Below, one piece after another: positions 3,222 to 47,429 of a stretch of 63,296 bases of DNA. The notes under the pieces were generated by a model that saw only the letters and a program-made list of their open reading frames with translations, did no database searches and was not told where the DNA came from. Source of the stretch: a virus (lineage: Duplodnaviria; Caudoviricetes). The position numbers and the translations under genes were made by a program. Location: IMG/VR virus record IMGVR_UViG_3300017978_000310, positions 1 to 63,296 of that record, one strand, 5' to 3'. Positions within the stretch are counted from its first letter, which is position 1; every line of letters starts with the position of its first letter.

Positions 3222-4349
3222 ATGGAAAATTTTCAAGTAAAATTGGTTGACTTTGAAGAAAAGTCTATCCAAGAAGTAGAAGAAAGTCTACTTAGAGTAC
3301 ATGAGGAAAAAACAGGAATCGAACAATTCGAGACCTCTGAAGAAGTTAAAATAGATCTCTCTGCTGAACCCGACACAGCATTGAATCAAAATGAAGAAGG
3401 GCAACCTTCTTCACCTGCATCGCAATTTGGCGATGAAGACGTTCTTTCATATTTGAAAAGCAAGTATAATAGAGAGGCTAACTCTTTGGATGATTTGTTT
3501 ACACCTGTTGATACTCAGAAGGAATTACTTCCGGATGACGTTGAAGCGTTTTATCGTTTCAAAAAAGAAACAGGTCGTGGACTAGAAGACTTCTATCGTG
3601 TTAACCAGGATTTTTCATCTGAAAAACCTGAGCGTTTATTGGCTACTTACATGAAGGAAATAAATCCAGAAATGGATGATGATGATATCCAATATGAAAT
3701 GAGCGAACTATATTCTTATGATGAGGATTTAGATGATGACCGCGACATTAAAAAGAAAAAACTTGCATTTAAAAAAGAACTTACTAAGGCAACAAAGTAT
3801 TTCGAGGAACGAAAAGAAAAGTACAGAGCACCACTCGAGTCGATTGGTACATCATCTGTCTCTTCAGAGGACCAAGAGGCTTTGAAATCTTATAAGGAAT
3901 ATATGAGTACCGCTTCTGCCCAACAGCAAGAGCAATCAAAGAAATCTGAATTCTTTGTGCAAAAGACTAATGAATTGTTCTCTAATGAATTTGAAGGTTT
4001 CAAGTTCGGTATTGGAGATAAGGATCTGTCTTGGAAGCCATCGAATGCTGAGGACTTAAAAAACAAACAAATGGATATCTCCAAATTCTTTGGCAATTTT
4101 GTCGATGACAATGGATATATCAAGGATGCTAAAGCGTATCATAAGACAATCGCTGTAGCCATGAACCCCGATTCTTTTGCAAAATTCTTTTACGAACAAG
4201 GTAAATCTGATGCAATTGATCAATCTGCTAAACAAAGCAAGAATATTGACATGGGATCTGTTCGTACAACAGGACAGCCAATTGATAAGGGAGGTTTTAA
4301 GGTAACAGCTTTGGATTCGGATCACGGCAATAGACTCCGAATTAAATAA
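3222..4349 (+). CDS. Probable capsid scaffolding protein
   Basis: Very acidic, helical, 375 aa, between portal and capsid genes. Confidence 0.65.
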   Translation: MENFQVKLVDFEEKSIQEVEESLLRVHEEKTGIEQFETSEEVKIDLSAEPDTALNQNEEGQPSSPASQFGDEDVLSYLKSKYNREANSLDDLFTPVDTQKELLPDDVEAFYRFKKETGRGLEDFYRVNQDFSSEKPERLLATYMKEINPEMDDDDIQYEMSELYSYDEDLDDDRDIKKKKLAFKKELTKATKYFEERKEKYRAPLESIGTSSVSSEDQEALKSYKEYMSTASAQQQEQSKKSEFFVQKTNELFSNEFEGFKFGIGDKDLSWKPSNAEDLKNKQMDISKFFGNFVDDNGYIKDAKAYHKTIAVAMNPDSFAKFFYEQGKSDAIDQSAKQSKNIDMGSVRTTGQPIDKGGFKVTALDSDHGNRLRIK

Positions 4350-18594: not shown

Positions 18595-21500
18595 ATGGCA
18601 AAACAACCTGTTAAACAGAAAGTAGCAACATTAGATGAATTACCTGCTTTTGAAACAGCTACCTTAGATGAATTACCTGATTTTGGTGAACCTGTAAAAA
18701 AAAAAGGCCAACCTCAGTTAGTAAAACCTACTACTTCGGTTTCAAGTTCTGTATCGCAACCTACGAAGCCTTCTTCGGAATTACCTGGTCAAGTGGTGTC
18801 TGGACCATCGGCATCATTCACAGCCGCACCAACTAAAAAGAAAGAAACTCCTAAGCCTGTAACTCAGAGTGAGGGTACTTTATTGCAACCAACTAAAACT
18901 AAAGAAGGATTAGATGTTGCAGGTAGATTTGACGTGTTTAAAAAAGGATGGAAGAATCTTGATACAGACATTTCAACTAATGTCAATCGTCAACGTCAAT
19001 TACAGCAGACTCAAATGAAAGACTTGACTTATTCTGCTAATAAATTAGAGCAGGATAAGAATAAATTTCAACAGCGTGTTGATCAATTTGAGCAAGAATA
19101 TAATGCTGATAAAACAAATCCTGAATTAATCAAAAGACAAAAGGAATTACAGAAAGAGCAAGAGAAAATAAATGCTCGGTTAGATGCATTTAAATTTCAA
19201 AAAGATGCTTTAGAAAAAAGCGATGCTGTTGTTTCTCAAACAATCAAGGATAAGAATGCTACCATTGGTGAATTAGAAAACTTTGGTAACAAACTAAGGG
19301 GAGCAGGGGCACAAGTAATTGCTATGTTTGATGCTATCCCAGCATATGCATCTAATTTAGCACTTGATTTACAATTGGCAGCTTACGGACAAACAGATGA
19401 GTTTAATAAACTTCCTGCTGCCGCAAAACAAGAAGTCCGTAACATAGTATTAGGAAATGCAAACCCTGCTTATAAGGGATCGCAAATGGCCTATGATTAT
19501 TGGAATAATTTATCCGAAAAAATTCTTGAAAAAACAATCGAACAAGAAGGTGATTTGTTTGATGATATCGCAAGTTTTGCATCTAAGCCATCTGTTGAAA
19601 ATGCAGGCAATGTAGTGCGTAGAGCTACATCTGGATTAGCTGAAGCTATTCCTTACATGGCACAAGGTTTAATGCCTGGAGGTTTAGTAACCATGGGTAT
19701 TACTTCGGCCGCAGGAAAGAGAATGGAAGATATAGATGAGGATGGTAATGCTGGACTTGGATATGCTTTAACATCAGGTATCCATGGAACTGCGGAGGCT
19801 TTCTTTGAAGGAAAGACAAATGAAATATTAAAGAAGGCTGGTGCAAGGATAATGGGAAATCCTAAAGCTTTAAAAGAGTTAAATACAGGTTTGTGGAGAG
19901 AGATACTTAAAGACTTTAATGAAGAAGGTTTATCAGAAGGATTTACCACATTATTTCAAGATACTCAAGATAAAATAAATAAAGGGGAATCTATAGATTT
20001 AGTAAAACTTGCTCGCAAGATTGGAGAAAGTTATGTGATGGGTGGTGTTATTGGAGGAGGAATTACTGGTGCTGGTGGCACATTAAAGGGTTCATTCAAT
20101 AAATTAAAAGAATCTATTGCAGGTAAAAACTTATTAACAAATGCTGTAATTACACCAGAAGATAAGAAGCGTTTAGAAGAAATTAGAGACACTACTCAAG
20201 ATTTATCAACACAAAAAGCTGATGATAACGACCCTGTTGTTAATCAAGTTATTGATGAAAAGTTAAATGATCTTGAAGCAGAGTATCGTGAGATTACCAC
20301 AAAGTATGATAATGTTGTTGAAGGATTAACAGAAGAACAAGCTCGTGATTTATTTAATGTCGATGATAAAATTGATGAGATAAGAACACGTGCAGAAGCT
20401 ATTAAGAATGATCCTAATTTAACAGAGGATGCCAAGAAATTATTGTGGCAAAAACTTAAACAAGAATTTGAACCATTAAAACAACAAAGAGATGCCATTC
20501 AAAAGCAAGCAACAAGTGAAGTACCTGTACAGCCAGAAGCCGGAGGTAGCCTCCAAATGGCGGAAGGAGAACCCCAAGCAGAACCTCAAGTCCCTGCCGA
20601 AGAAGGTAAAGTCGAAAAAATAGGACAAGCCTTAGATTCAGATAATACATTTACCATGCGTGGCAATGAGGGTAACCTTTTTGTTGATGACAATGGATTA
20701 GTATTATTTGAGTCAGGAGATGAGATTGTTGAACTTGGTAACATTGCCGATTTAAGTGAGTCGGATCTTAAGGACTTTGGAATAGAGCCTAAAACTCCTG
20801 TGCCTATTGAGATTGGCGAGGATGGATCAATTCAAGTTGCAGGGAAGAAATATGTTAATGTTGCTGAGGCTCCTATGGATGCGATTACATTTGATCAAGA
20901 TGGCAATGTTAAAGCAGTAAGATTAGAAACCGAGAATGGACAAAGTCGTTTCTTTAGAGGAAAGCGTGCTGAGTCTATTGCTTATCAATATACACTACAA
21001 AATTTTGAGAATAATGCAACAGACGAGCAAATCGACAATGCCATCAACCAGGCAACAGAAATTGCAACAACTGAAGGACCAGTTGAGCAAGTTACAGCCG
21101 AAGGACCAATTGAGGTTGTTGAGCCTACCGAAGAAGTCGTAGTAGAAGAAGGAAAACAAAAATCACCTCCATCGGCTAAGAAAATTTTAGGTATTAAGCC
21201 TAAAAAAGTTACAGTAGATGAGATGGCATCTTTAAAGGGCCAATTAAGACTTCAAGCTAAAGCTGCTAAGACTGCTTACGACTTTGCTGAATCAGCAAGA
21301 AAGTTAGTGGCAACCTACATTAAAAATAATGTACAAGGTGCTCTATCCCCTGCCGATCAAAAAGCTATCTTCCGTGCTATGGAGGGTAAGCTTGATACGC
21401 CTGAGAACAAGAAGAAGATGATCGATAAGATTACTGGAATCTTGCAAAAGTCTGAGGGCAAGATTGCAATCAAAGAACTTGATGCTCTTGGTCGTATGCT

Positions 21501-24500
21501 TAAGTCTATGGAAAAGGGCTCCAAGTTAGGGGCTAAGGCTGTTGCTGATCAAATCAAATCCGTTGTCGATACAATCAAAGCAATGGGTGTTAAAAATAGA
21601 CTTAAGGCTGCCCAAGTAAAATTGTTGCTTAATGGAATGAAAAAGAATTTAATGAACGCAACTGTTCGTGATAAATTCTTAGCAAGTGCACAGCGAGTTC
21701 TTAATAATGCAGCATATGCAGAGCAGGTTACAGAGGCTCAAAAGTTAAGAGGAAAGTTACGCAAGATGCTAAAGACAGGCAAAGAGATTGCCGAAGTCGA
21801 GCAGTCTGTTCGTAACTTCTTGAAACTTGATCCTAAAATGGTTGAGGATATTGAAGAGTATATGGATTATGCTACTGAGATATTTGATGCCATTAGAAAC
21901 GTACAGGTTAAAGATGGAAAGGTATTAGGTAAACGTGCTGCTGTATTAGCTAACATTGATGCATATGCTACTGAACAGAATGCAATACAAGATGAGATTA
22001 ATAAGAACTACTTATTAGATGAATACAACTATCTAGTTGAAGCAGGTTTGATTAGTGGAGATATGTCATTGGATGAAATTCAATCATATATAGCATCTGT
22101 TGAAGAAAATCCAGAAAGTTCCGAGTCGACTAAGTCTGATACAATTAGAGAGTTCACCAAGAATGCGTTTGAAGGATTCGCTAATACAGTTAATGAAATG
22201 ATTGAGGATGGTGAAATTGAAGAGCAGGATGTAGATTTTGATATGGTGAAGAAATTCACAGAGATGGACATTGAGGCTCTTCCTTTAGACCAACAATTAG
22301 CAGCTGTAGAATCCCTTGAAAACTTTATTGTTAATGGAGTTACAAGTCGTATGGGTGCCATATTGCAAGGATATACTGGAGTATCAAATGCTGTAAACGA
22401 TGCCAAATCAGGCATGAAAGCTAGACCATTATCATACGGATTAATTGGACGAATAGGATACTTAAAGCAGTTAGCAAACAAAGGAATTACTGGAAATTTA
22501 TTAAAAGGTATTGCATCAATTGGGGATGCATACAATGAAATAATGGCAACCTATATTTCTAAAGCTGATTCATTGGTTGTAAGTGTATTTCGTAGCACCA
22601 AACTTGGAATGAGATTTATGAAAAACTCTGGATTCGCAGGCGTTGTTCGTGGTTTTGTTGAAGGCAAAAAGATTGCTAACAATTTTGCTAAAAAGTACTC
22701 AGAGAAGTTTGATGGATCTAAGCCAAATGGTATGGATTTTAAATCTGCTTTAAACATTTACGAGCGTGGTATTTTCGCTGACTTATCTAGAACCATTCTG
22801 AATGGGACTACTGAACAAATTCAAAAAGAATTTAATCGTAAGAAGAAGCAATTAGAACTTACAATTAAAACTCTTCGTGAATCAGGTAAGCAAGAATTGA
22901 TTGATAAGGCAGATCTTTATGATTCTATTTATCAGAAAATTAAAGATGCTAAAAGCATTGAAGATGTTAAGCAAAATGTTGACCCAATCAATCAGGCTGC
23001 TGTAAAAGAGGTTCAGGATATGTGGAGAAAATACTATCCTGAGTTCAGAAGAATGGCAGCTGATTATTACAATGTAATTTTAGAAGAGGATGTAGACTAT
23101 TCTCCAGATATGTACGAAAAATTGTCGGAAGAAATATCTGATGACTTAATTACAAAAGGTGCATTTAAAATGGCGTTTGATTTAGTAAGCACAGAGAAGA
23201 CTGGCACTTTGCAGAAAAACAAAAGAATTGAGGGACTTCCAAAAAATTCTAAAACAAAAGAAATAAATCGTGTTAGGGATTATGACTTTGATTTCAATAA
23301 CATATCTGCGTTAGAAAAAACTTTAATCGATGTAAGAACAACACCATCTGTTCAGCAGTTTATGGGTTACACAAACTCAGCTTCATTCAGGGAGATATTT
23401 CCTGATATGGATGAGAGAGCGTTAATCTTGAAGCGATTAAACTTTAATATTAATGCATTGCGTGAACGACAAGATACGTATTCTTCTAAGTTAGCACGTA
23501 AATTAAATAAGATTACTACAGCACTTAGTAAGTATGGTACTCGTATTGGTTTAGGATCGTTATCTTCTGCCCCTAAACAATCAATCCCAATGGTAGCAAA
23601 TACAGCTATTAATATGATTAATGACTTGGGAAGCTTTGGGATGGGTATTGCAGATTTTTGGAATGATGATGCAATGGCATTCTTAGAGAACTCCGGGTAT
23701 GGAATCTCGTTGCGTGGTGCTGAATCTCAGACATCAATTGACTTTGCGGAAAAGTTGGTTGACCGTGCTAACCAAGGCAAAGTGGGTAATATTCAACAAG
23801 CTTTATCTAAGCTAGGTGATATGTACATCGAAAAATTCCTAAAGAATCCTGACGTGTTTGTAGCTAACATGGCTTGGTTAGGATATTATAGAAGTAAATT
23901 AAAGTCAATGGGTGTTGACATGAACACATTTGATTGGAAGAATCATGAGTTGAATGAGGAGGCAGCTGACTATGCTGAATTTATGGTTCAGGATCAGCAG
24001 AATATGAACATATCTGAATTGGGTGGTAAGTTGTTGGCATCAAAAGATGCTACGACTAAAATCATTCGTCAGTTATTGTTCCCATTTGCTTCTTATCAAT
24101 TTAACTTAAAAGATAAGAACAATAGAAACTTGACTTTATTAACATCTAAGACATCAACGAACGAAGAAAAAGTAAACGCTACTAAATCCTATGTGGCTGG
24201 ATTGGTCGAGTCGTATACATTCCAAACTATCCAAGGTTTAATTGGTAGTTTGTTACTAGGTGCTGCATATTCAGCAATCGGATACGATCAACCAGAAGAA
24301 GAGAAGACAGAAGGTGTCTTAGATGCCTTAGCTAAAGCGATGCCATTCCTTAGATCAAAATCTTCTAGTGAGAAATGGAATGATAGTTTGTTTACAGGTA
24401 AAAGTATATTTGAATTTGTAACACCATTGCCATTACCTGGTACACTTGAAACCTACACATTATTAGGTTTAAATAGCCTAATGGACATGGCTCAAGGAGG

Positions 24501-24993
24501 ATCACCAAAAGAACAAGCTAAAGCCAAAAAAGAATTATTAAAACAACAGGAAAATTTATCTGGATTTAAACCAAGAAGAGGTAAAAAACTTTTTGGTGAG
24601 CCTGTAGTAGATAAGGAGAAAGCAAAGATTGAAGAAAGATTGGAAGAGCCATTCAGATTCCCTGTTAAAGAAGAACAGCGTGTTAGCCAAACAGTTGGAG
24701 ATATTATGGGTGGTGTGCCGAGTGTTGGTATCGAGGCTGTTTGGGATATGGGAGTTAGAGCAGGTGAAGCTTATGGAGATTCTTATGAAGATAAATACGG
24801 CAACGTATATGAATACTCAGATGAGCAGAAAAAGATTCTTAAGACATCATTAATCCCTAGAGCTATGGTGGCAATGAATATTGCTCCAAGAGAATTCTTA
24901 ACTATCTCTAATAACATCGTCAAGGCTGTAAACCAAAAAGCTAAAGAGGATACTAAAGCAAAAAAAGAGAAAGAAAAAAGTGGTGGATTCTAA
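18595..24993 (+). CDS. Giant internal virion/ejection protein
   Basis: 2132 aa, helical, Gly-rich hydrophobic patches, last gene of the structural operon. Confidence 0.6.
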   Translation: MAKQPVKQKVATLDELPAFETATLDELPDFGEPVKKKGQPQLVKPTTSVSSSVSQPTKPSSELPGQVVSGPSASFTAAPTKKKETPKPVTQSEGTLLQPTKTKEGLDVAGRFDVFKKGWKNLDTDISTNVNRQRQLQQTQMKDLTYSANKLEQDKNKFQQRVDQFEQEYNADKTNPELIKRQKELQKEQEKINARLDAFKFQKDALEKSDAVVSQTIKDKNATIGELENFGNKLRGAGAQVIAMFDAIPAYASNLALDLQLAAYGQTDEFNKLPAAAKQEVRNIVLGNANPAYKGSQMAYDYWNNLSEKILEKTIEQEGDLFDDIASFASKPSVENAGNVVRRATSGLAEAIPYMAQGLMPGGLVTMGITSAAGKRMEDIDEDGNAGLGYALTSGIHGTAEAFFEGKTNEILKKAGARIMGNPKALKELNTGLWREILKDFNEEGLSEGFTTLFQDTQDKINKGESIDLVKLARKIGESYVMGGVIGGGITGAGGTLKGSFNKLKESIAGKNLLTNAVITPEDKKRLEEIRDTTQDLSTQKADDNDPVVNQVIDEKLNDLEAEYREITTKYDNVVEGLTEEQARDLFNVDDKIDEIRTRAEAIKNDPNLTEDAKKLLWQKLKQEFEPLKQQRDAIQKQATSEVPVQPEAGGSLQMAEGEPQAEPQVPAEEGKVEKIGQALDSDNTFTMRGNEGNLFVDDNGLVLFESGDEIVELGNIADLSESDLKDFGIEPKTPVPIEIGEDGSIQVAGKKYVNVAEAPMDAITFDQDGNVKAVRLETENGQSRFFRGKRAESIAYQYTLQNFENNATDEQIDNAINQATEIATTEGPVEQVTAEGPIEVVEPTEEVVVEEGKQKSPPSAKKILGIKPKKVTVDEMASLKGQLRLQAKAAKTAYDFAESARKLVATYIKNNVQGALSPADQKAIFRAMEGKLDTPENKKKMIDKITGILQKSEGKIAIKELDALGRMLKSMEKGSKLGAKAVADQIKSVVDTIKAMGVKNRLKAAQVKLLLNGMKKNLMNATVRDKFLASAQRVLNNAAYAEQVTEAQKLRGKLRKMLKTGKEIAEVEQSVRNFLKLDPKMVEDIEEYMDYATEIFDAIRNVQVKDGKVLGKRAAVLANIDAYATEQNAIQDEINKNYLLDEYNYLVEAGLISGDMSLDEIQSYIASVEENPESSESTKSDTIREFTKNAFEGFANTVNEMIEDGEIEEQDVDFDMVKKFTEMDIEALPLDQQLAAVESLENFIVNGVTSRMGAILQGYTGVSNAVNDAKSGMKARPLSYGLIGRIGYLKQLANKGITGNLLKGIASIGDAYNEIMATYISKADSLVVSVFRSTKLGMRFMKNSGFAGVVRGFVEGKKIANNFAKKYSEKFDGSKPNGMDFKSALNIYERGIFADLSRTILNGTTEQIQKEFNRKKKQLELTIKTLRESGKQELIDKADLYDSIYQKIKDAKSIEDVKQNVDPINQAAVKEVQDMWRKYYPEFRRMAADYYNVILEEDVDYSPDMYEKLSEEISDDLITKGAFKMAFDLVSTEKTGTLQKNKRIEGLPKNSKTKEINRVRDYDFDFNNISALEKTLIDVRTTPSVQQFMGYTNSASFREIFPDMDERALILKRLNFNINALRERQDTYSSKLARKLNKITTALSKYGTRIGLGSLSSAPKQSIPMVANTAINMINDLGSFGMGIADFWNDDAMAFLENSGYGISLRGAESQTSIDFAEKLVDRANQGKVGNIQQALSKLGDMYIEKFLKNPDVFVANMAWLGYYRSKLKSMGVDMNTFDWKNHELNEEAADYAEFMVQDQQNMNISELGGKLLASKDATTKIIRQLLFPFASYQFNLKDKNNRNLTLLTSKTSTNEEKVNATKSYVAGLVESYTFQTIQGLIGSLLLGAAYSAIGYDQPEEEKTEGVLDALAKAMPFLRSKSSSEKWNDSLFTGKSIFEFVTPLPLPGTLETYTLLGLNSLMDMAQGGSPKEQAKAKKELLKQQENLSGFKPRRGKKLFGEPVVDKEKAKIEERLEEPFRFPVKEEQRVSQTVGDIMGGVPSVGIEAVWDMGVRAGEAYGDSYEDKYGNVYEYSDEQKKILKTSLIPRAMVAMNIAPREFLTISNNIVKAVNQKAKEDTKAKKEKEKSGGF
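20492..20623 (+). CDS. Small basic protein nested in the +1 frame of the giant ejection gene
   Basis: MPFKSKQQVKYLYSQKPEVASKWRKENPKQNLKSLPKKVKSKK*; A-rich upstream; local GC rise; resembles stand-alone MPFKSK.. phage mini-proteins. Confidence 0.6.
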   Translation: MPFKSKQQVKYLYSQKPEVASKWRKENPKQNLKSLPKKVKSKK

Positions 24994-45884: not shown

Positions 45885-47429
45885 ATGATAGTTAAAGAAA
45901 TCTCATTCGGCAAAGAAGGCCGAGACAAATTAATCAAAGGTGTGGATGCGGTGGCGAACGCTGTCGGCTCTACATTAGGGGCACGGGGTCGGACTGTGCT
46001 CATCGAGTCAGAGCAACACGTTGGAGGGATCACGGTCACAAAGGATGGGGTGACAGTTGCTAAGTCAATTAACTTATTGGACCCGGCTGAGAACCTAGCG
46101 GTGATGATCATGCGAGAGGCATCAGAGAAGACTGCCAACTCGGCAGGCGATGGGACAACGACAAGTATGGTGCTGGCACAGGCCATCATCCATGAGGCCA
46201 TGGCTCAGATTGAGCCGAGCGATAACTTGACACAGGTGCTAAGAGATATCCAAGAGGCGAGCACAGAGGTGCTGGCTAAGTTAGATCAGATGTCGGTCGA
46301 GATTACTAACGACAAGCTTGAGTCAGTTGCTACAATCTCTGCTAATGGGGACACGGACACGGGTGGCATAATTGCTGATGCGTACAGTAAGGTGGGGCTG
46401 ACCGGAGTGGTGAGCGTTGAGCCAAGTAAGGATGCGATGACATACTCGGAGATTATTAGTGGCATGAAGATAGATCGTGGGTTCACAAGTAAGTACTTTG
46501 TGACTGACCATAAGAAGCAAGAGTGCGTGCTAGACGATCCATATATCTTGGTGACTGACCAGCCTATTAGTCATATTAATGACATCTTCCCAATACTTGA
46601 GTATATACTTGAGGGTAACAAGTCATTGCTAATCATTGGCGAGTTAGAGGAGAATGCTCTGAACACGCTGAACGCCAACAAGATTAAGGCGAAGTTAAAG
46701 GTGTGCACAATTACTCCTCCGCAGTTTGGCTACAAGAAGCATCAGTTGATGGCAGACATTGCTCATGCGACAGGGGCTAAGTATTTCTCAGAGCAGACAG
46801 GGGACAACTTGGCGATGGTGAGCATCGATGACCTGGGGCGTGCTAAGAAGATTATTAGTGGCCGGTTCAATACTTTGATCCGTGAGCCAGGTGGCTTGGT
46901 GGATGAGCGAGTGGCAGAGCTACAAGAGCAGTTAAATGTGGAGACAAGCGGGATCGAGAAGGACTTCTTAAAAGAGCGTATAGCTAACCTTGGTGGTGGG
47001 GTTGCGGTGATCTATGTTGGGGCACAGTCTGACATTGAGCAGAAGGAGAAGAAGGACAGAGTGGACGATGCGGTGTGTGCTGTCAGAGCTGCACTTGAGG
47101 AGGGCATTCTACCAGGTGGTGGGGTGGCACTAAAAGATGTGGCGGTTGAGATGGCTGTTTTAAACAAAGGGGCGTATATTCTTAAAAACGCTATGTTGGC
47201 TCCTATGAACAAGATATTATCTAATGCTGGCTATGACCTACATAGTGAAACAATTAGTAGTATGACAGAAGGCGTTGGGGTAAACGTGGTGAACATGGCC
47301 ACGGCTAATATGATGGACATAGGGATCATCGATCCAACGAAGGTGACAAAGGAGAGTTTAAGGAATGCTGTTAGCGTAGCAACTACATTACTTTCTACCG
47401 ACACAGTTATTACTAATATTAGGGCATAA
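45885..47429 (+). CDS. groEL: Chaperonin GroEL (Cpn60), no GGM tail
   Basis: TKDGVTVAK, AGDGTTT, EEGILPGGG and GIIDPTKVT motifs. Confidence 0.95.
   Translation: MIVKEISFGKEGRDKLIKGVDAVANAVGSTLGARGRTVLIESEQHVGGITVTKDGVTVAKSINLLDPAENLAVMIMREASEKTANSAGDGTTTSMVLAQAIIHEAMAQIEPSDNLTQVLRDIQEASTEVLAKLDQMSVEITNDKLESVATISANGDTDTGGIIADAYSKVGLTGVVSVEPSKDAMTYSEIISGMKIDRGFTSKYFVTDHKKQECVLDDPYILVTDQPISHINDIFPILEYILEGNKSLLIIGELEENALNTLNANKIKAKLKVCTITPPQFGYKKHQLMADIAHATGAKYFSEQTGDNLAMVSIDDLGRAKKIISGRFNTLIREPGGLVDERVAELQEQLNVETSGIEKDFLKERIANLGGGVAVIYVGAQSDIEQKEKKDRVDDAVCAVRAALEEGILPGGGVALKDVAVEMAVLNKGAYILKNAMLAPMNKILSNAGYDLHSETISSMTEGVGVNVVNMATANMMDIGIIDPTKVTKESLRNAVSVATTLLSTDTVITNIRA

What the first reader, a model, noticed from the sequence alone, without database searches (positions are those of the whole stretch)
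20492..20623. Small basic gene nested in the +1 frame of the 2132-aa ejection gene
Seen: the ATG at 20492 follows an A-rich stretch and opens MPFKSKQQVKYLYSQKPEVASKWRKENPKQNLKSLPKKVKSKK*. The host frame here reads as a disordered linker (AIQKQATSEVPVQPEAGG), and GC rises just over this span. Recalled, not searched: MPFKSK.Q..YLY...PEVA..W occurs as a free-standing mini-gene in environmental phages. Inference: a real overlapping gene, either captured by or overprinted with the large ORF.
Basis: partly seen in the sequence, partly recalled or inferred. Interest (0 to 1): 0.7.

Follow-up and report, generated by a model that had tools for sequence, protein, structure and literature searches.

The report
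Conserved mini-gene embedded in giant phage gene
A 43-codon gene for a small, very basic protein lies hidden in a shifted reading frame inside a giant virion-protein gene of a Flavobacteria-type phage, and it evolves as a genuine protein-coding gene that is far better conserved than the gene around it.

Summary
ATG 20492..TAG 20623 encodes a 43-aa, net +11.5 peptide in the +1 frame of the 2132-aa ORF 18595..24993.

Its length is not unusual. Its conservation is:
- It belongs to a large phage mini-protein family (phrog_1375-like; 3225 representative clusters). Members stand alone or form the N-terminal module of longer proteins.
- In 80 of 80 peptide-selected relatives it is an intact ATG-started ORF at +1 inside a giant ORF. 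The same holds for 16 of 16 portal-selected relatives that carry it (11 of 11 near-complete genomes) and for 68 Flavobacterium phage "elemo" records.
- Nucleotide differences fall on its own third codon positions (60%). They are 74% synonymous in its frame and 6.5% in the host frame.
- The stretch upstream is A-rich and unstructured, like a Bacteroidota initiation region.
- No frameshift site is conserved.
- Related phages carry it embedded at +1 in a different gene, the scaffold-position gene.

The family is much more widespread than the host gene, so capture (engulfment) fits better than de novo overprinting.

Function is unknown. I infer a small capsid-interior or nucleic-acid-associated protein, with low confidence. 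Translation was not shown directly.

The parts
20492..20623 (+). Embedded mini-gene: ATG, 43 codons, TAG. It encodes a 5.2-kDa protein with pI 10.4 and net charge +11.5. Residues 6-26 are predicted as a two-helix hairpin, followed by a Lys-rich tail.
   Evidence: sequence; family; frame-specific purifying selection; AF2: pLDDT 73, helices 6-15 and 17-26; charge; no Cys; no hydrophobic run longer than 3.
20471..20491 (+). Inferred SD-independent translation-initiation region of the mini-gene. It is A-rich: A at -14 to -11 and at -6 in the window. Across relatives A is at -3 (0.85), -6 (0.65), -12 (0.73) and -13 (0.89).
   Evidence: The positions match the positive determinants reported for Flavobacterium johnsoniae (PMC6847099, section 15 read). 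Its function as an initiation site is inferred, not shown.
18595..24993 (+). Host gene: a 2132-aa giant ORF at the end of the virion-structural block. It evolves fast, at about 31% identity to relatives in residues 950-1900.
   Evidence: (synteny with elemoC gp20 'structural protein').
20491..20625 (+). Dual-coding segment as read in the host frame (host residues 633-677, an E/Q/A/P/G-rich linker). The frame is kept open but its residues are weakly constrained.
   Evidence: host-frame pairwise identity 0.54 against 0.82 in the mini frame; 0 of 74 have a stop in the host frame, 65 of 74 have one in the third frame. AAG makes up 79% of Lys codons in embedded copies and 30% in free-standing ones, and 0 of 28 free-standing copies keep this frame open.

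Best explanation
window:20492-20623 is a genuine, separately translated gene embedded in the +1 frame of the giant virion-protein gene.

SHOWN:
(1) Its product belongs to a very large family of phage mini-proteins or N-terminal modules (MPFKS..Q..YLY...P..A..W/F plus a basic tail).
(2) Throughout a lineage of Flavobacteriia podoviruses the ORF is intact, ATG-started and always at +1 inside the giant gene.
(3) Purifying selection acts on the small frame, while the host frame is merely kept open across it.
(4) It is the only copy of the family in this complete 63.3-kb genome.

INFERRED:
- Ribosomes start internally at ATG 20492 on the late structural mRNA. They would use the A-rich, weakly structured, Shine-Dalgarno-independent initiation context typical of Bacteroidota.
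- The arrangement arose when a fast-evolving capsid-interior gene extended across an older free-standing mini-gene (engulfment). Synonymous sites were then retuned (T avoided at third positions, AAG preferred over AAA) to keep the host frame open. This retuning also explains the local GC rise.
- Function (low confidence, about 0.3): a small basic two-helix protein that acts inside the capsid or on nucleic acid, together with the internal or ejected virion proteins. The grounds are its charge, its embedding in two different capsid-interior genes, a free-standing copy between the portal and head genes in another phage, and the module heading longer proteins, one of which carries an SLT transglycosylase domain.
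For: Family:
- phmmer finds 46 proteins of 40-59 aa at E 3.8e-16 to 1e-2.
- 24 of 47 family members hit phrog_1375, best E 7.5e-7.
- A profile search of 1.84 billion representatives gives 3225 hits at E<=1e-3 and 129 at E<=1e-10, nearly all starting at residue 1.

Intactness and position:
- 80 of 80 IMG/VR loci selected by the peptide carry a 41-66-aa ATG ORF at offset +1 in open frames of up to more than 4000 aa.
- MW202828.1 and 68 elemo phage records do the same.
16 of 18 records have exactly one copy, as do 11 of 11 records that are at least 90% complete. All 16 copies are intact and embedded.

Selection (74 unique 114-nt cores):
- Differences at mini-frame codon positions 1/2/3 are 27/13/60%.
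- Single-nucleotide codon differences are 74% synonymous in the mini frame and 6.5% in the host frame.
- Pairwise amino-acid identity is 0.82 (mini), 0.54 (host) and 0.56 (third frame).
- Control in the same loci: the host C-terminal domain varies 33/25/43% by host codon position at 0.49 nt identity, while the overlap varies 64/24/13% at 0.81 nt identity.
- The only significant BLASTP segment between the window and elemoC giant proteins is the overlapped stretch.

Initiation context:
- A fraction at -21..-1 is 0.59 against 0.36 background.
- Host third positions upstream are 0.65-0.87 A against 0.35 background.
- The window's own 51 long ORFs average 0.50.
- Predicted dG for -25..+15 is -0.8 against -4.5 kcal/mol for background windows.
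- No other ATG lies within +/-30 nt.
- The pattern agrees with PMC6847099, section 15.

Other:
- Host-frame constraint.
- Single copy in a complete genome with direct terminal repeats.
- Second embedding site: 20 loci carry it at +1 in a 405-432-aa gene between portal and capsid genes. That gene is homologous to window 3222..4349 (36% identity, E 1e-44).
Against: - There is no direct evidence of translation. No ribosome profiling or proteomics was available, and a Lys-rich 5-kDa protein is easily missed by tryptic MS.
- P0001 alone hits phrog_1375 only weakly (E 0.035) and has no Pfam family.
- The pairwise counts are not corrected for shared ancestry.
- The 80 loci were selected by the peptide itself. 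The unbiased sample covers only close relatives (portal identity 68-96%) and only 18 of 80 loci.
- More distant isolates of the lineage show no copy: Maribacter phage Panino by profile search, and Cellulophaga and Tenacibaculum phages by tblastn only. The gene is therefore not universal.
- The functional inference is weak. Other family members sit among early-region small genes (P-RSP2) or beside a holin (Streptomyces phage FlowerPower). The fold is a low-information two-helix hairpin with no PDB match. BFVD matches are only uncharacterised family members.
- E-values from searches with alignment A2 include the window's own row.
Confidence: 0.88

Rival explanations
1. Chance or by-product ORF. 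The +1 frame is open and looks conserved only because the host protein is conserved here, or because an acidic linker read at +1 gives lysines.
For: ORFs of 52 and 68 aa occur in the +1 frame of the same gene. GAA-rich host codons do read as AAG (Lys) at +1, so the basic tail alone could be a by-product.
Against: Variation peaks at host codon position 1 and is lowest at host position 3, the reverse of a host-driven pattern. Only 6.5% of single-nucleotide codon changes are synonymous in the host frame. The ATG is invariant in 74 of 74 unique sequences. Free-standing homologues exist with different nucleotide sequences.
Confidence: 0.02
2. Frameshift isoform. The small frame is not a stand-alone product. 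It is joined to the host frame by programmed ribosomal frameshifting, for example -1 at the Lys-rich 3' end. That would give the C-terminal 1450 aa an MPFKS N-terminal module, like the long forms of the family.
For: In many family members the module is the N-terminus of proteins of 100-831 aa. One metagenomic protein (P0051, 1075 aa) has the peptide fused in frame to an upstream giant-gene part.
Against: Only 2 of 75 unique embedded ORFs have an in-frame X XXY YYZ heptamer in their last 8 codons, and none has a run of 7 or more A. The tails differ in length and sequence. Stop codons lie 2-15 codons upstream of the ATG in the small frame (open frames of 45-58 aa), which leaves little room for entry from the host frame.
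Confidence: 0.04
3. Function rival: a cationic lysis peptide (disruptin-like, as phiKT gp28) or another membrane-active peptide, embedded in the way Rz1 is embedded in Rz.
For: It is small and strongly cationic. One family member in Streptomyces phage FlowerPower lies between a 'peptidase' and the holin. phiKT gp28 is a 56-aa cationic peptide that disrupts the outer membrane (abstract of 10.1101/515445).
Against: It is very hydrophilic (GRAVY -1.55, mean helix hydrophobicity negative, muH 0.36-0.44). It has no lipobox, no Cys and no signal peptide. It is embedded in capsid-interior genes, not in a lysis cassette. The family also occurs in phages of Gram-positive hosts and as the N-terminus of long proteins.
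Confidence: 0.08
4. A non-coding signal (RNA structure, promoter or packaging site), or an unexpressed relic of a captured gene.
For: It is an island of nucleotide conservation (0.81 identity) in a region otherwise at about 0.49.
Against: The conservation has strict three-base periodicity in the small frame, with 74% synonymous changes. The reading frame, ATG and stop are kept in every relative examined. A relic would have decayed at the divergence seen in the flanks.
Confidence: 0.02

Closest known systems
Lambda Rz/Rz1 embedded spanin genes (passages of Kongari et al. 2018, PMC6139136, read)
   Same: A complete small gene lies in the +1 frame of a longer phage gene. It is usually missed by gene callers. 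That paper also proposes a 'separated to embedded' route through loss of a stop codon.
   Different: The product is not an o-spanin: no lipobox, Cys or signal sequence. The host gene is a giant virion protein (or the scaffold-position gene in relatives), not an i-spanin. There is no link to a lysis cassette in this genome.
phrog_1375 / free-standing 'MPFKS' mini-genes, e.g. CDS URG13095.1 of phage 023Pt_psg01 and unannotated ORFs in Synechococcus phage S-CBS2 and Prochlorococcus phage P-RSP2
   Same: They share the N-terminal motif, size and basic tail, and are homologous by phmmer and profile searches.
   Different: Those copies stand alone between genes. None of 28 unique free-standing copies keeps the overlapping frame open, and they use AAA rather than AAG for Lys. 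The function of the whole family is unknown.
Overprinted genes of small phages (phiX174 E within D, B within A; recalled, not checked here)
   Same: Two proteins are read from one DNA stretch in different frames.
   Different: In overprinting the embedded frame is the young, lineage-restricted one. Here the embedded gene is the old, widespread one, and the host-frame reading is the unconserved by-product.
Small basic capsid-interior or DNA-associated phage proteins (T4 internal proteins, phiX174 J; recalled, a functional analogy only)
   Same: Small size, high positive charge and genetic association with head-interior components.
   Different: No sequence or fold similarity was found. Virion location and DNA binding are untested.

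Membership tests
MPFKS mini-protein / N-terminal module family (phrog_1375-like) | Significant sequence similarity to family members over the whole module | tested here: met
   phmmer with P0001 finds 46 proteins at E 3.8e-16 to 1e-2. Distant members such as P0036 score E about 1e-3. The direct hit of P0001 to phrog_1375 is weak (E 0.035), but 24 of 47 aligned members hit it, best E 7.5e-7.
MPFKS mini-protein / N-terminal module family (phrog_1375-like) | Invariant motif positions (P2 F3 K4 S5 Q8 A20; near-invariant L12 S14 Q15 K16 P17), with the module at the very N-terminus | tested here: met
   All are present in the window peptide. The module starts at residue 1 in nearly all of the 150 best profile hits.
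Embedded out-of-frame gene architecture (Rz/Rz1 type) | The whole small ORF lies inside a longer same-strand gene in the +1 frame, and both frames are maintained | tested here: met
   Offset +1 in the window and in 80 of 80 plus 16 of 16 relatives. The host frame is open in 74 of 74, and the small frame is under purifying selection.
o-spanin (Rz1-like) | Signal peptide with a lipobox Cys | tested here: not met
   No Cys, and no hydrophobic run longer than 3 residues.
Disruptin (phiKT gp28-like cationic lysis peptide) | Small cationic peptide with amphipathic, membrane-binding helices, encoded with lysis genes | tested here: inconclusive
   Cationic and small: met. Amphipathicity is modest and mean hydrophobicity negative. 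It is not in a lysis cassette here. Sequence similarity to gp28 was not tested because no sequence was at hand. Lysis activity cannot be tested with these tools.
Pfam DUF3008 (PF11450) | Match to the Pfam model | tested here: not met
   0 of 47 family members match at E<=1. The only link is a feature-space lead of 0.86 to a cluster in which 15% of members carry PF11450.
Programmed -1 frameshift product | Conserved in-frame slippery heptamer at the junction | tested here: not met
   2 of 75 unique ORFs.
De novo overprinted gene | The embedded frame is younger and more narrowly distributed than the host gene | tested here: not met
   The family is found in phages of Cyanobacteria, Streptomyces and marine hosts, and in 3225 representative clusters. 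The giant host proteins are not even BLASTP-alignable between the window and elemoC outside the overlap.

The most novel reading that the evidence does not exclude
An ancient, widespread phage mini-protein has become an obligatorily embedded, dual-coded gene in a whole lineage of Flavobacteriia podoviruses. It sits at +1 inside either the giant internal virion gene or the scaffold-position gene. This means that it was engulfed at least twice, or that it moved as a dual-coding cassette between disordered linkers of capsid-interior proteins. Embedding would lock the small protein genetically, and perhaps stoichiometrically, to a capsid-interior partner. The MPFKS module would then be a general virion-targeting or genome-end-binding module. 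That would make this an embedded gene family of tailed phages outside the lysis cassette, in which the embedded gene is the old one and the host frame the newcomer.
Probability: 0.3. Interest if true: 0.8.

Novelty: new variant of a known kind. Interest (0 to 1): 0.68.

Why it matters
- It adds a well-supported embedded gene to tailed-phage genomes. The gene is unannotated in at least 69 GenBank phage records (68 elemo records and MW202828.1), and the free-standing copies in S-CBS2 and P-RSP2 are also unannotated.
- It reverses the usual polarity of overlapping genes. The conserved, old gene is the small embedded one, and a fast-evolving giant gene reads through it. This gives a natural system for studying how two frames share synonymous sites; T-avoidance and AAG bias are visible here.
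- It flags a very large family of unknown function (3225 representative clusters) for experiment, in a culturable phage-host pair (the elemo phages).
- It shows that the only alignable piece of some giant virion proteins is not conserved for their own sake. That is a caution for homology-based annotation.
- I found no description of this family or arrangement in three full-text searches.

Tried and rejected
I used alignments instead.
- A search anchored on the host C-terminal domain (alignment A4) failed for lack of conserved stretches. The gene just upstream was too divergent to anchor on (25-36% identity). I anchored on the portal instead.
- Programmed frameshifting is rejected: slippery heptamers in 2 of 75.
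- Spanin identity is rejected: no lipobox.
- DUF3008 is rejected by HMM.
- Structure gave nothing functional. AF2 pLDDT was 73 with a two-helix hairpin. Foldseek PDB gave 0 hits. The PDB sequence profile gave one chance-level hit, E 0.17. BFVD returned only uncharacterised family members at E>=0.33. The ESM Atlas returned only 'hypothetical protein' clusters.
- Pfam on 10 long forms found one SLT domain and one sub-threshold AAA match. PHROGs on 9 proteins (two of them scaffold-position host proteins, the rest family members with the module) found only unknown-function families.
- Megablast of the giant gene against cultured phages found no match.
- Literature searches for the motif string, the elemo phages and nested small phage genes found nothing relevant.
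- I did not run complex prediction (no specific partner is claimed), the look-up of sequencing runs or read laying (RNA coverage cannot separate two frames of one mRNA).
- L058 was dropped from the control because its stored translation did not match.
Full report
**What is there**

The window is a complete 63,296-bp phage genome with direct terminal repeats. The ATG at 20492 opens a 43-codon ORF that ends at TAG 20621-20623. It lies at offset +1 inside the 2132-aa ORF 18595..24993.

- The host frame over it reads as an E/Q/A/P/G-rich stretch.
- GC rises to 0.46-0.51 over the span, against 0.28-0.34 just upstream.
- The 21 nt upstream are 62% A.
- Length alone means nothing. The same gene contains +1-frame ATG ORFs of 68 and 52 aa, and the window has many alternative-frame ORFs of at least 80 aa.

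**The phage**

The portal, capsid and other structural proteins place it among podoviruses of Flavobacteriia.

- tblastn of the portal finds 87 cultured-phage records: 68 Flavobacterium 'elemo', 15 Cellulophaga, 2 Tenacibaculum, 1 Maribacter and 1 uncultured (MW202828.1, 65% identity).
- Gene order is portal, a scaffold-position gene, capsid, several virion proteins, then the giant gene. This matches elemoC, whose 3694-aa gp20 is annotated 'structural protein'.
- The giant ORF has no significant Pfam or PHROG match. 'Ejection protein' is therefore a positional guess, not a finding.

**The peptide belongs to a real family**

- phmmer finds 46 proteins of 40-59 aa (E 3.8e-16 to 1e-2 among 59 candidates). 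They share MPFKS..Q.KYLYSQKPEVAKKF/W and usually a ..LPKKVKKK tail.
- 24 of 47 aligned members hit phrog_1375 (unknown function; best E 7.5e-7). The window peptide alone hits it only at E 0.035. No member hits a Pfam family convincingly.
- A profile search of 1.84 billion representatives returns 3225 proteins at E<=1e-3 and 129 at E<=1e-10.
- Among the 150 listed, the module almost always starts at residue 1. The proteins range from 40 to 831 aa.
  - unannotated ORFs in intergenic gaps of Synechococcus phage S-CBS2 and Prochlorococcus phage P-RSP2;
  - an annotated 39-aa CDS between the portal and head genes of marine phage 023Pt_psg01;
  - a 72-aa gene beside the holin in Streptomyces phage FlowerPower;
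  - 28 unique free-standing short forms among 80 further IMG/VR loci.

**The embedded arrangement is conserved**

- In 80 of 80 loci the ORF is ATG-started, 41-66 aa, and sits at offset +1 in an open frame of up to more than 4000 aa. L079, which my pattern missed, was checked by hand.
- The same holds in MW202828.1 and in elemoC. All 68 elemo records carry it under the 'structural protein' CDS without annotation.
- Those loci were chosen by the peptide, so I drew an independent sample by portal similarity (164 relatives, best 80 kept).
- I searched the whole records of the 18 loci that lie on contigs of at least 35 kb. 16 of 18 have exactly one copy, as do 11 of 11 records at least 90% complete. 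The two misses are fragments that are 64-69% complete.
- All 16 copies are intact 41-44-aa ATG ORFs embedded at +1.
- More distant isolates appear to lack it. Maribacter phage Panino has no match by profile. Cellulophaga and Tenacibaculum phages gave no tblastn hit.

**Which frame is under selection**

Over 74 unique 114-nt cores:

| Measure | Mini frame | Host frame | Third frame |
|---|---|---|---|
| Mean pairwise amino-acid identity | 0.82 | 0.54 | 0.56 |
| Single-nucleotide codon differences that are synonymous | 74% | 6.5% | 15.5% |
| Sequences with a stop | not counted (the ORF itself) | 0 of 74 | 65 of 74 |

- Pairwise nucleotide differences fall 27/13/60% on positions 1/2/3 of the small frame. 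Small-frame position 3 is host position 1.
- The ATG is invariant.
- As a control in the same loci (23 sequences, L058 dropped), the host's C-terminal domain varies 33/25/43% by host codon position at 0.49 nucleotide identity. The overlap varies 64/24/13% by host position at 0.81 identity.
- The host protein is about 31% identical among relatives in residues 950-1900 and barely alignable just downstream of the overlap.
- Between the window and elemoC, the only significant BLASTP segment is the overlapped stretch itself.
- The small frame therefore carries the constraint. These are pairwise counts without phylogenetic correction, but shared ancestry cannot create a codon periodicity in the 'wrong' frame.

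**The host frame is also maintained**

- None of the 28 unique free-standing copies keeps the equivalent frame open, whereas all embedded ones do.
- Embedded copies use AAG for 79% of Lys codons. Free-standing copies use it for 30%, and the window's other genes for 39-44%.
- T is nearly absent at small-frame third positions.
- A third-position T before an AA, AG or GA codon would create a host-frame stop, and AAG gives the host G-starting (Glu-type) codons.

**How it is probably expressed (inferred)**

- Upstream of the ATG there is no nucleotide conservation except A-richness.
- Across 75 unique loci, A frequency is 0.85 at -3, 0.65 at -6, 0.75 at -11, 0.73 at -12, 0.89 at -13 and 0.65 at -14.
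- The -21..-1 stretch is 59% A against a 36% background.
- Upstream host third codon positions are 65-87% A against 35% elsewhere. Synonymous host sites are therefore recruited.
- These are the positions reported as positive determinants of Shine-Dalgarno-independent initiation in Flavobacterium johnsoniae (Baez et al. 2019, PMC6847099; abstract and section 15 read).
- The window's own 51 long ORFs show the same signature.
- The -25..+15 window is predicted to be almost unstructured: -0.8 against -4.5 kcal/mol. A median of 7.6% of background windows are as open.
- No other ATG lies within +/-30 nt.
- A frameshift origin is not supported: 2 of 75 have a slippery heptamer near the 3' end, and small-frame stops lie a few codons upstream of the ATG.

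**A second embedding site**

In 20 of the 80 loci, a sister subfamily (MPFKSEKQRKYLWANEPEIAKKW...) is embedded at +1, about 60-75 codons into a 405-432-aa gene.

- In L126 that gene lies between the portal (50% identical to the window's) and the capsid gene (51%).
- It is homologous to window 3222..4349 (36% identity, E 1e-44). The window's gene lacks the insert.
- Variation there is 27/27/46% by small-frame position, with identity 0.78 against 0.61.
- Each record searched has a single copy.
- So within one phage lineage the mini-gene is embedded in either of two capsid-interior genes, always in a disordered, acidic part.

**Origin**

The family is far more widespread than the host genes, and the host-frame reading is an unconserved linker. 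This fits engulfment or capture of an older gene, not de novo overprinting.

- A stop-loss route from 'separated' to 'embedded' was proposed for spanins (Kongari et al. 2018, PMC6139136, passages read).
- One metagenomic protein (P0051) has the peptide fused in frame behind an upstream giant-gene part.
- elemoC carries a 10-codon relic of a second copy 396 nt upstream.
- Both observations hint at frame fluidity here.

**Function**

- The product is 5.2 kDa, pI 10.4, net charge +11.5 and very hydrophilic, with no Cys.
- AF2 with the family alignment gives two short helices (6-15 and 17-26) and a disordered Lys tail (pLDDT 73).
- There is no informative structural or PDB match.
- It is not an o-spanin. 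A disruptin-like lysis role (abstract of 10.1101/515445) is possible but poorly supported.
- The module heads longer proteins, one with an SLT transglycosylase domain.
- Its embedding in capsid-interior genes makes a capsid-interior or nucleic-acid-associated role my best guess, at about 0.3. This is inference only.

**Verdict**

This is a real embedded gene that is unannotated in public records. It is a new variant of the known embedded-gene architecture, with the unusual polarity that the old gene sits inside the young reading. Translation and function remain to be shown.

I found no prior description in three full-text searches.

Noticed in passing
window 45885-47429 (+): The phage encodes a GroEL-type chaperonin (phrog_5725, E 5.8e-127). 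The related elemoC and Panino records are annotated with GroEL and GroES too.
   Followed up: no
L085 1105-1137 (NC_062743.1), 396 nt upstream of the embedded gene: A truncated second copy of the mini-gene start (MPFKSKKLMK, then a stop) lies in the same +1 frame of elemoC gp20. It looks like a relic of a duplication.
   Followed up: partly
L001 6001-6132; L085 1501-1629: The elemo and MW202828.1 versions replace YLY...EVA..W with ACY...WDCKKW. This introduces two conserved Cys that are absent from the window's version.
   Followed up: no
protein P0051 (metagenomic, 1075 aa): The mini-peptide is fused in frame to the end of an upstream giant-gene-like part. This is either a natural frame variant that splits the giant gene, or an assembly indel.
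   Followed up: no
L003 1001-1111 (S-CBS2); L002 1001-1123 (P-RSP2): Free-standing family members sit in gaps of the GenBank annotations of two cultured cyanophages and are not annotated as CDSs.
   Followed up: yes
L126 5952-6080 and 19 further loci: A sister subfamily of the mini-gene is embedded at +1 near the 5' end of the scaffold-position gene. That gene is the homologue of window 3222-4349, and the window's copy has no such insert.
   Followed up: yes
window 18595-24993 versus L084 34318-42414: The giant proteins of the window and of elemoC share no significant BLASTP similarity except the roughly 50 residues overlapped by the mini-gene.
   Followed up: yes
L001 and L085, host-frame translations: HExxH-type motifs are visible by eye in the giant proteins of MW202828.1 and elemoC in the printed translations. 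I did not look for one in the window's giant protein.
   Followed up: no
window 20621-20623 and relatives: The embedded ORFs end only in TAG (38) or TAA (37) among 75 unique sequences, never in TGA.
   Followed up: no
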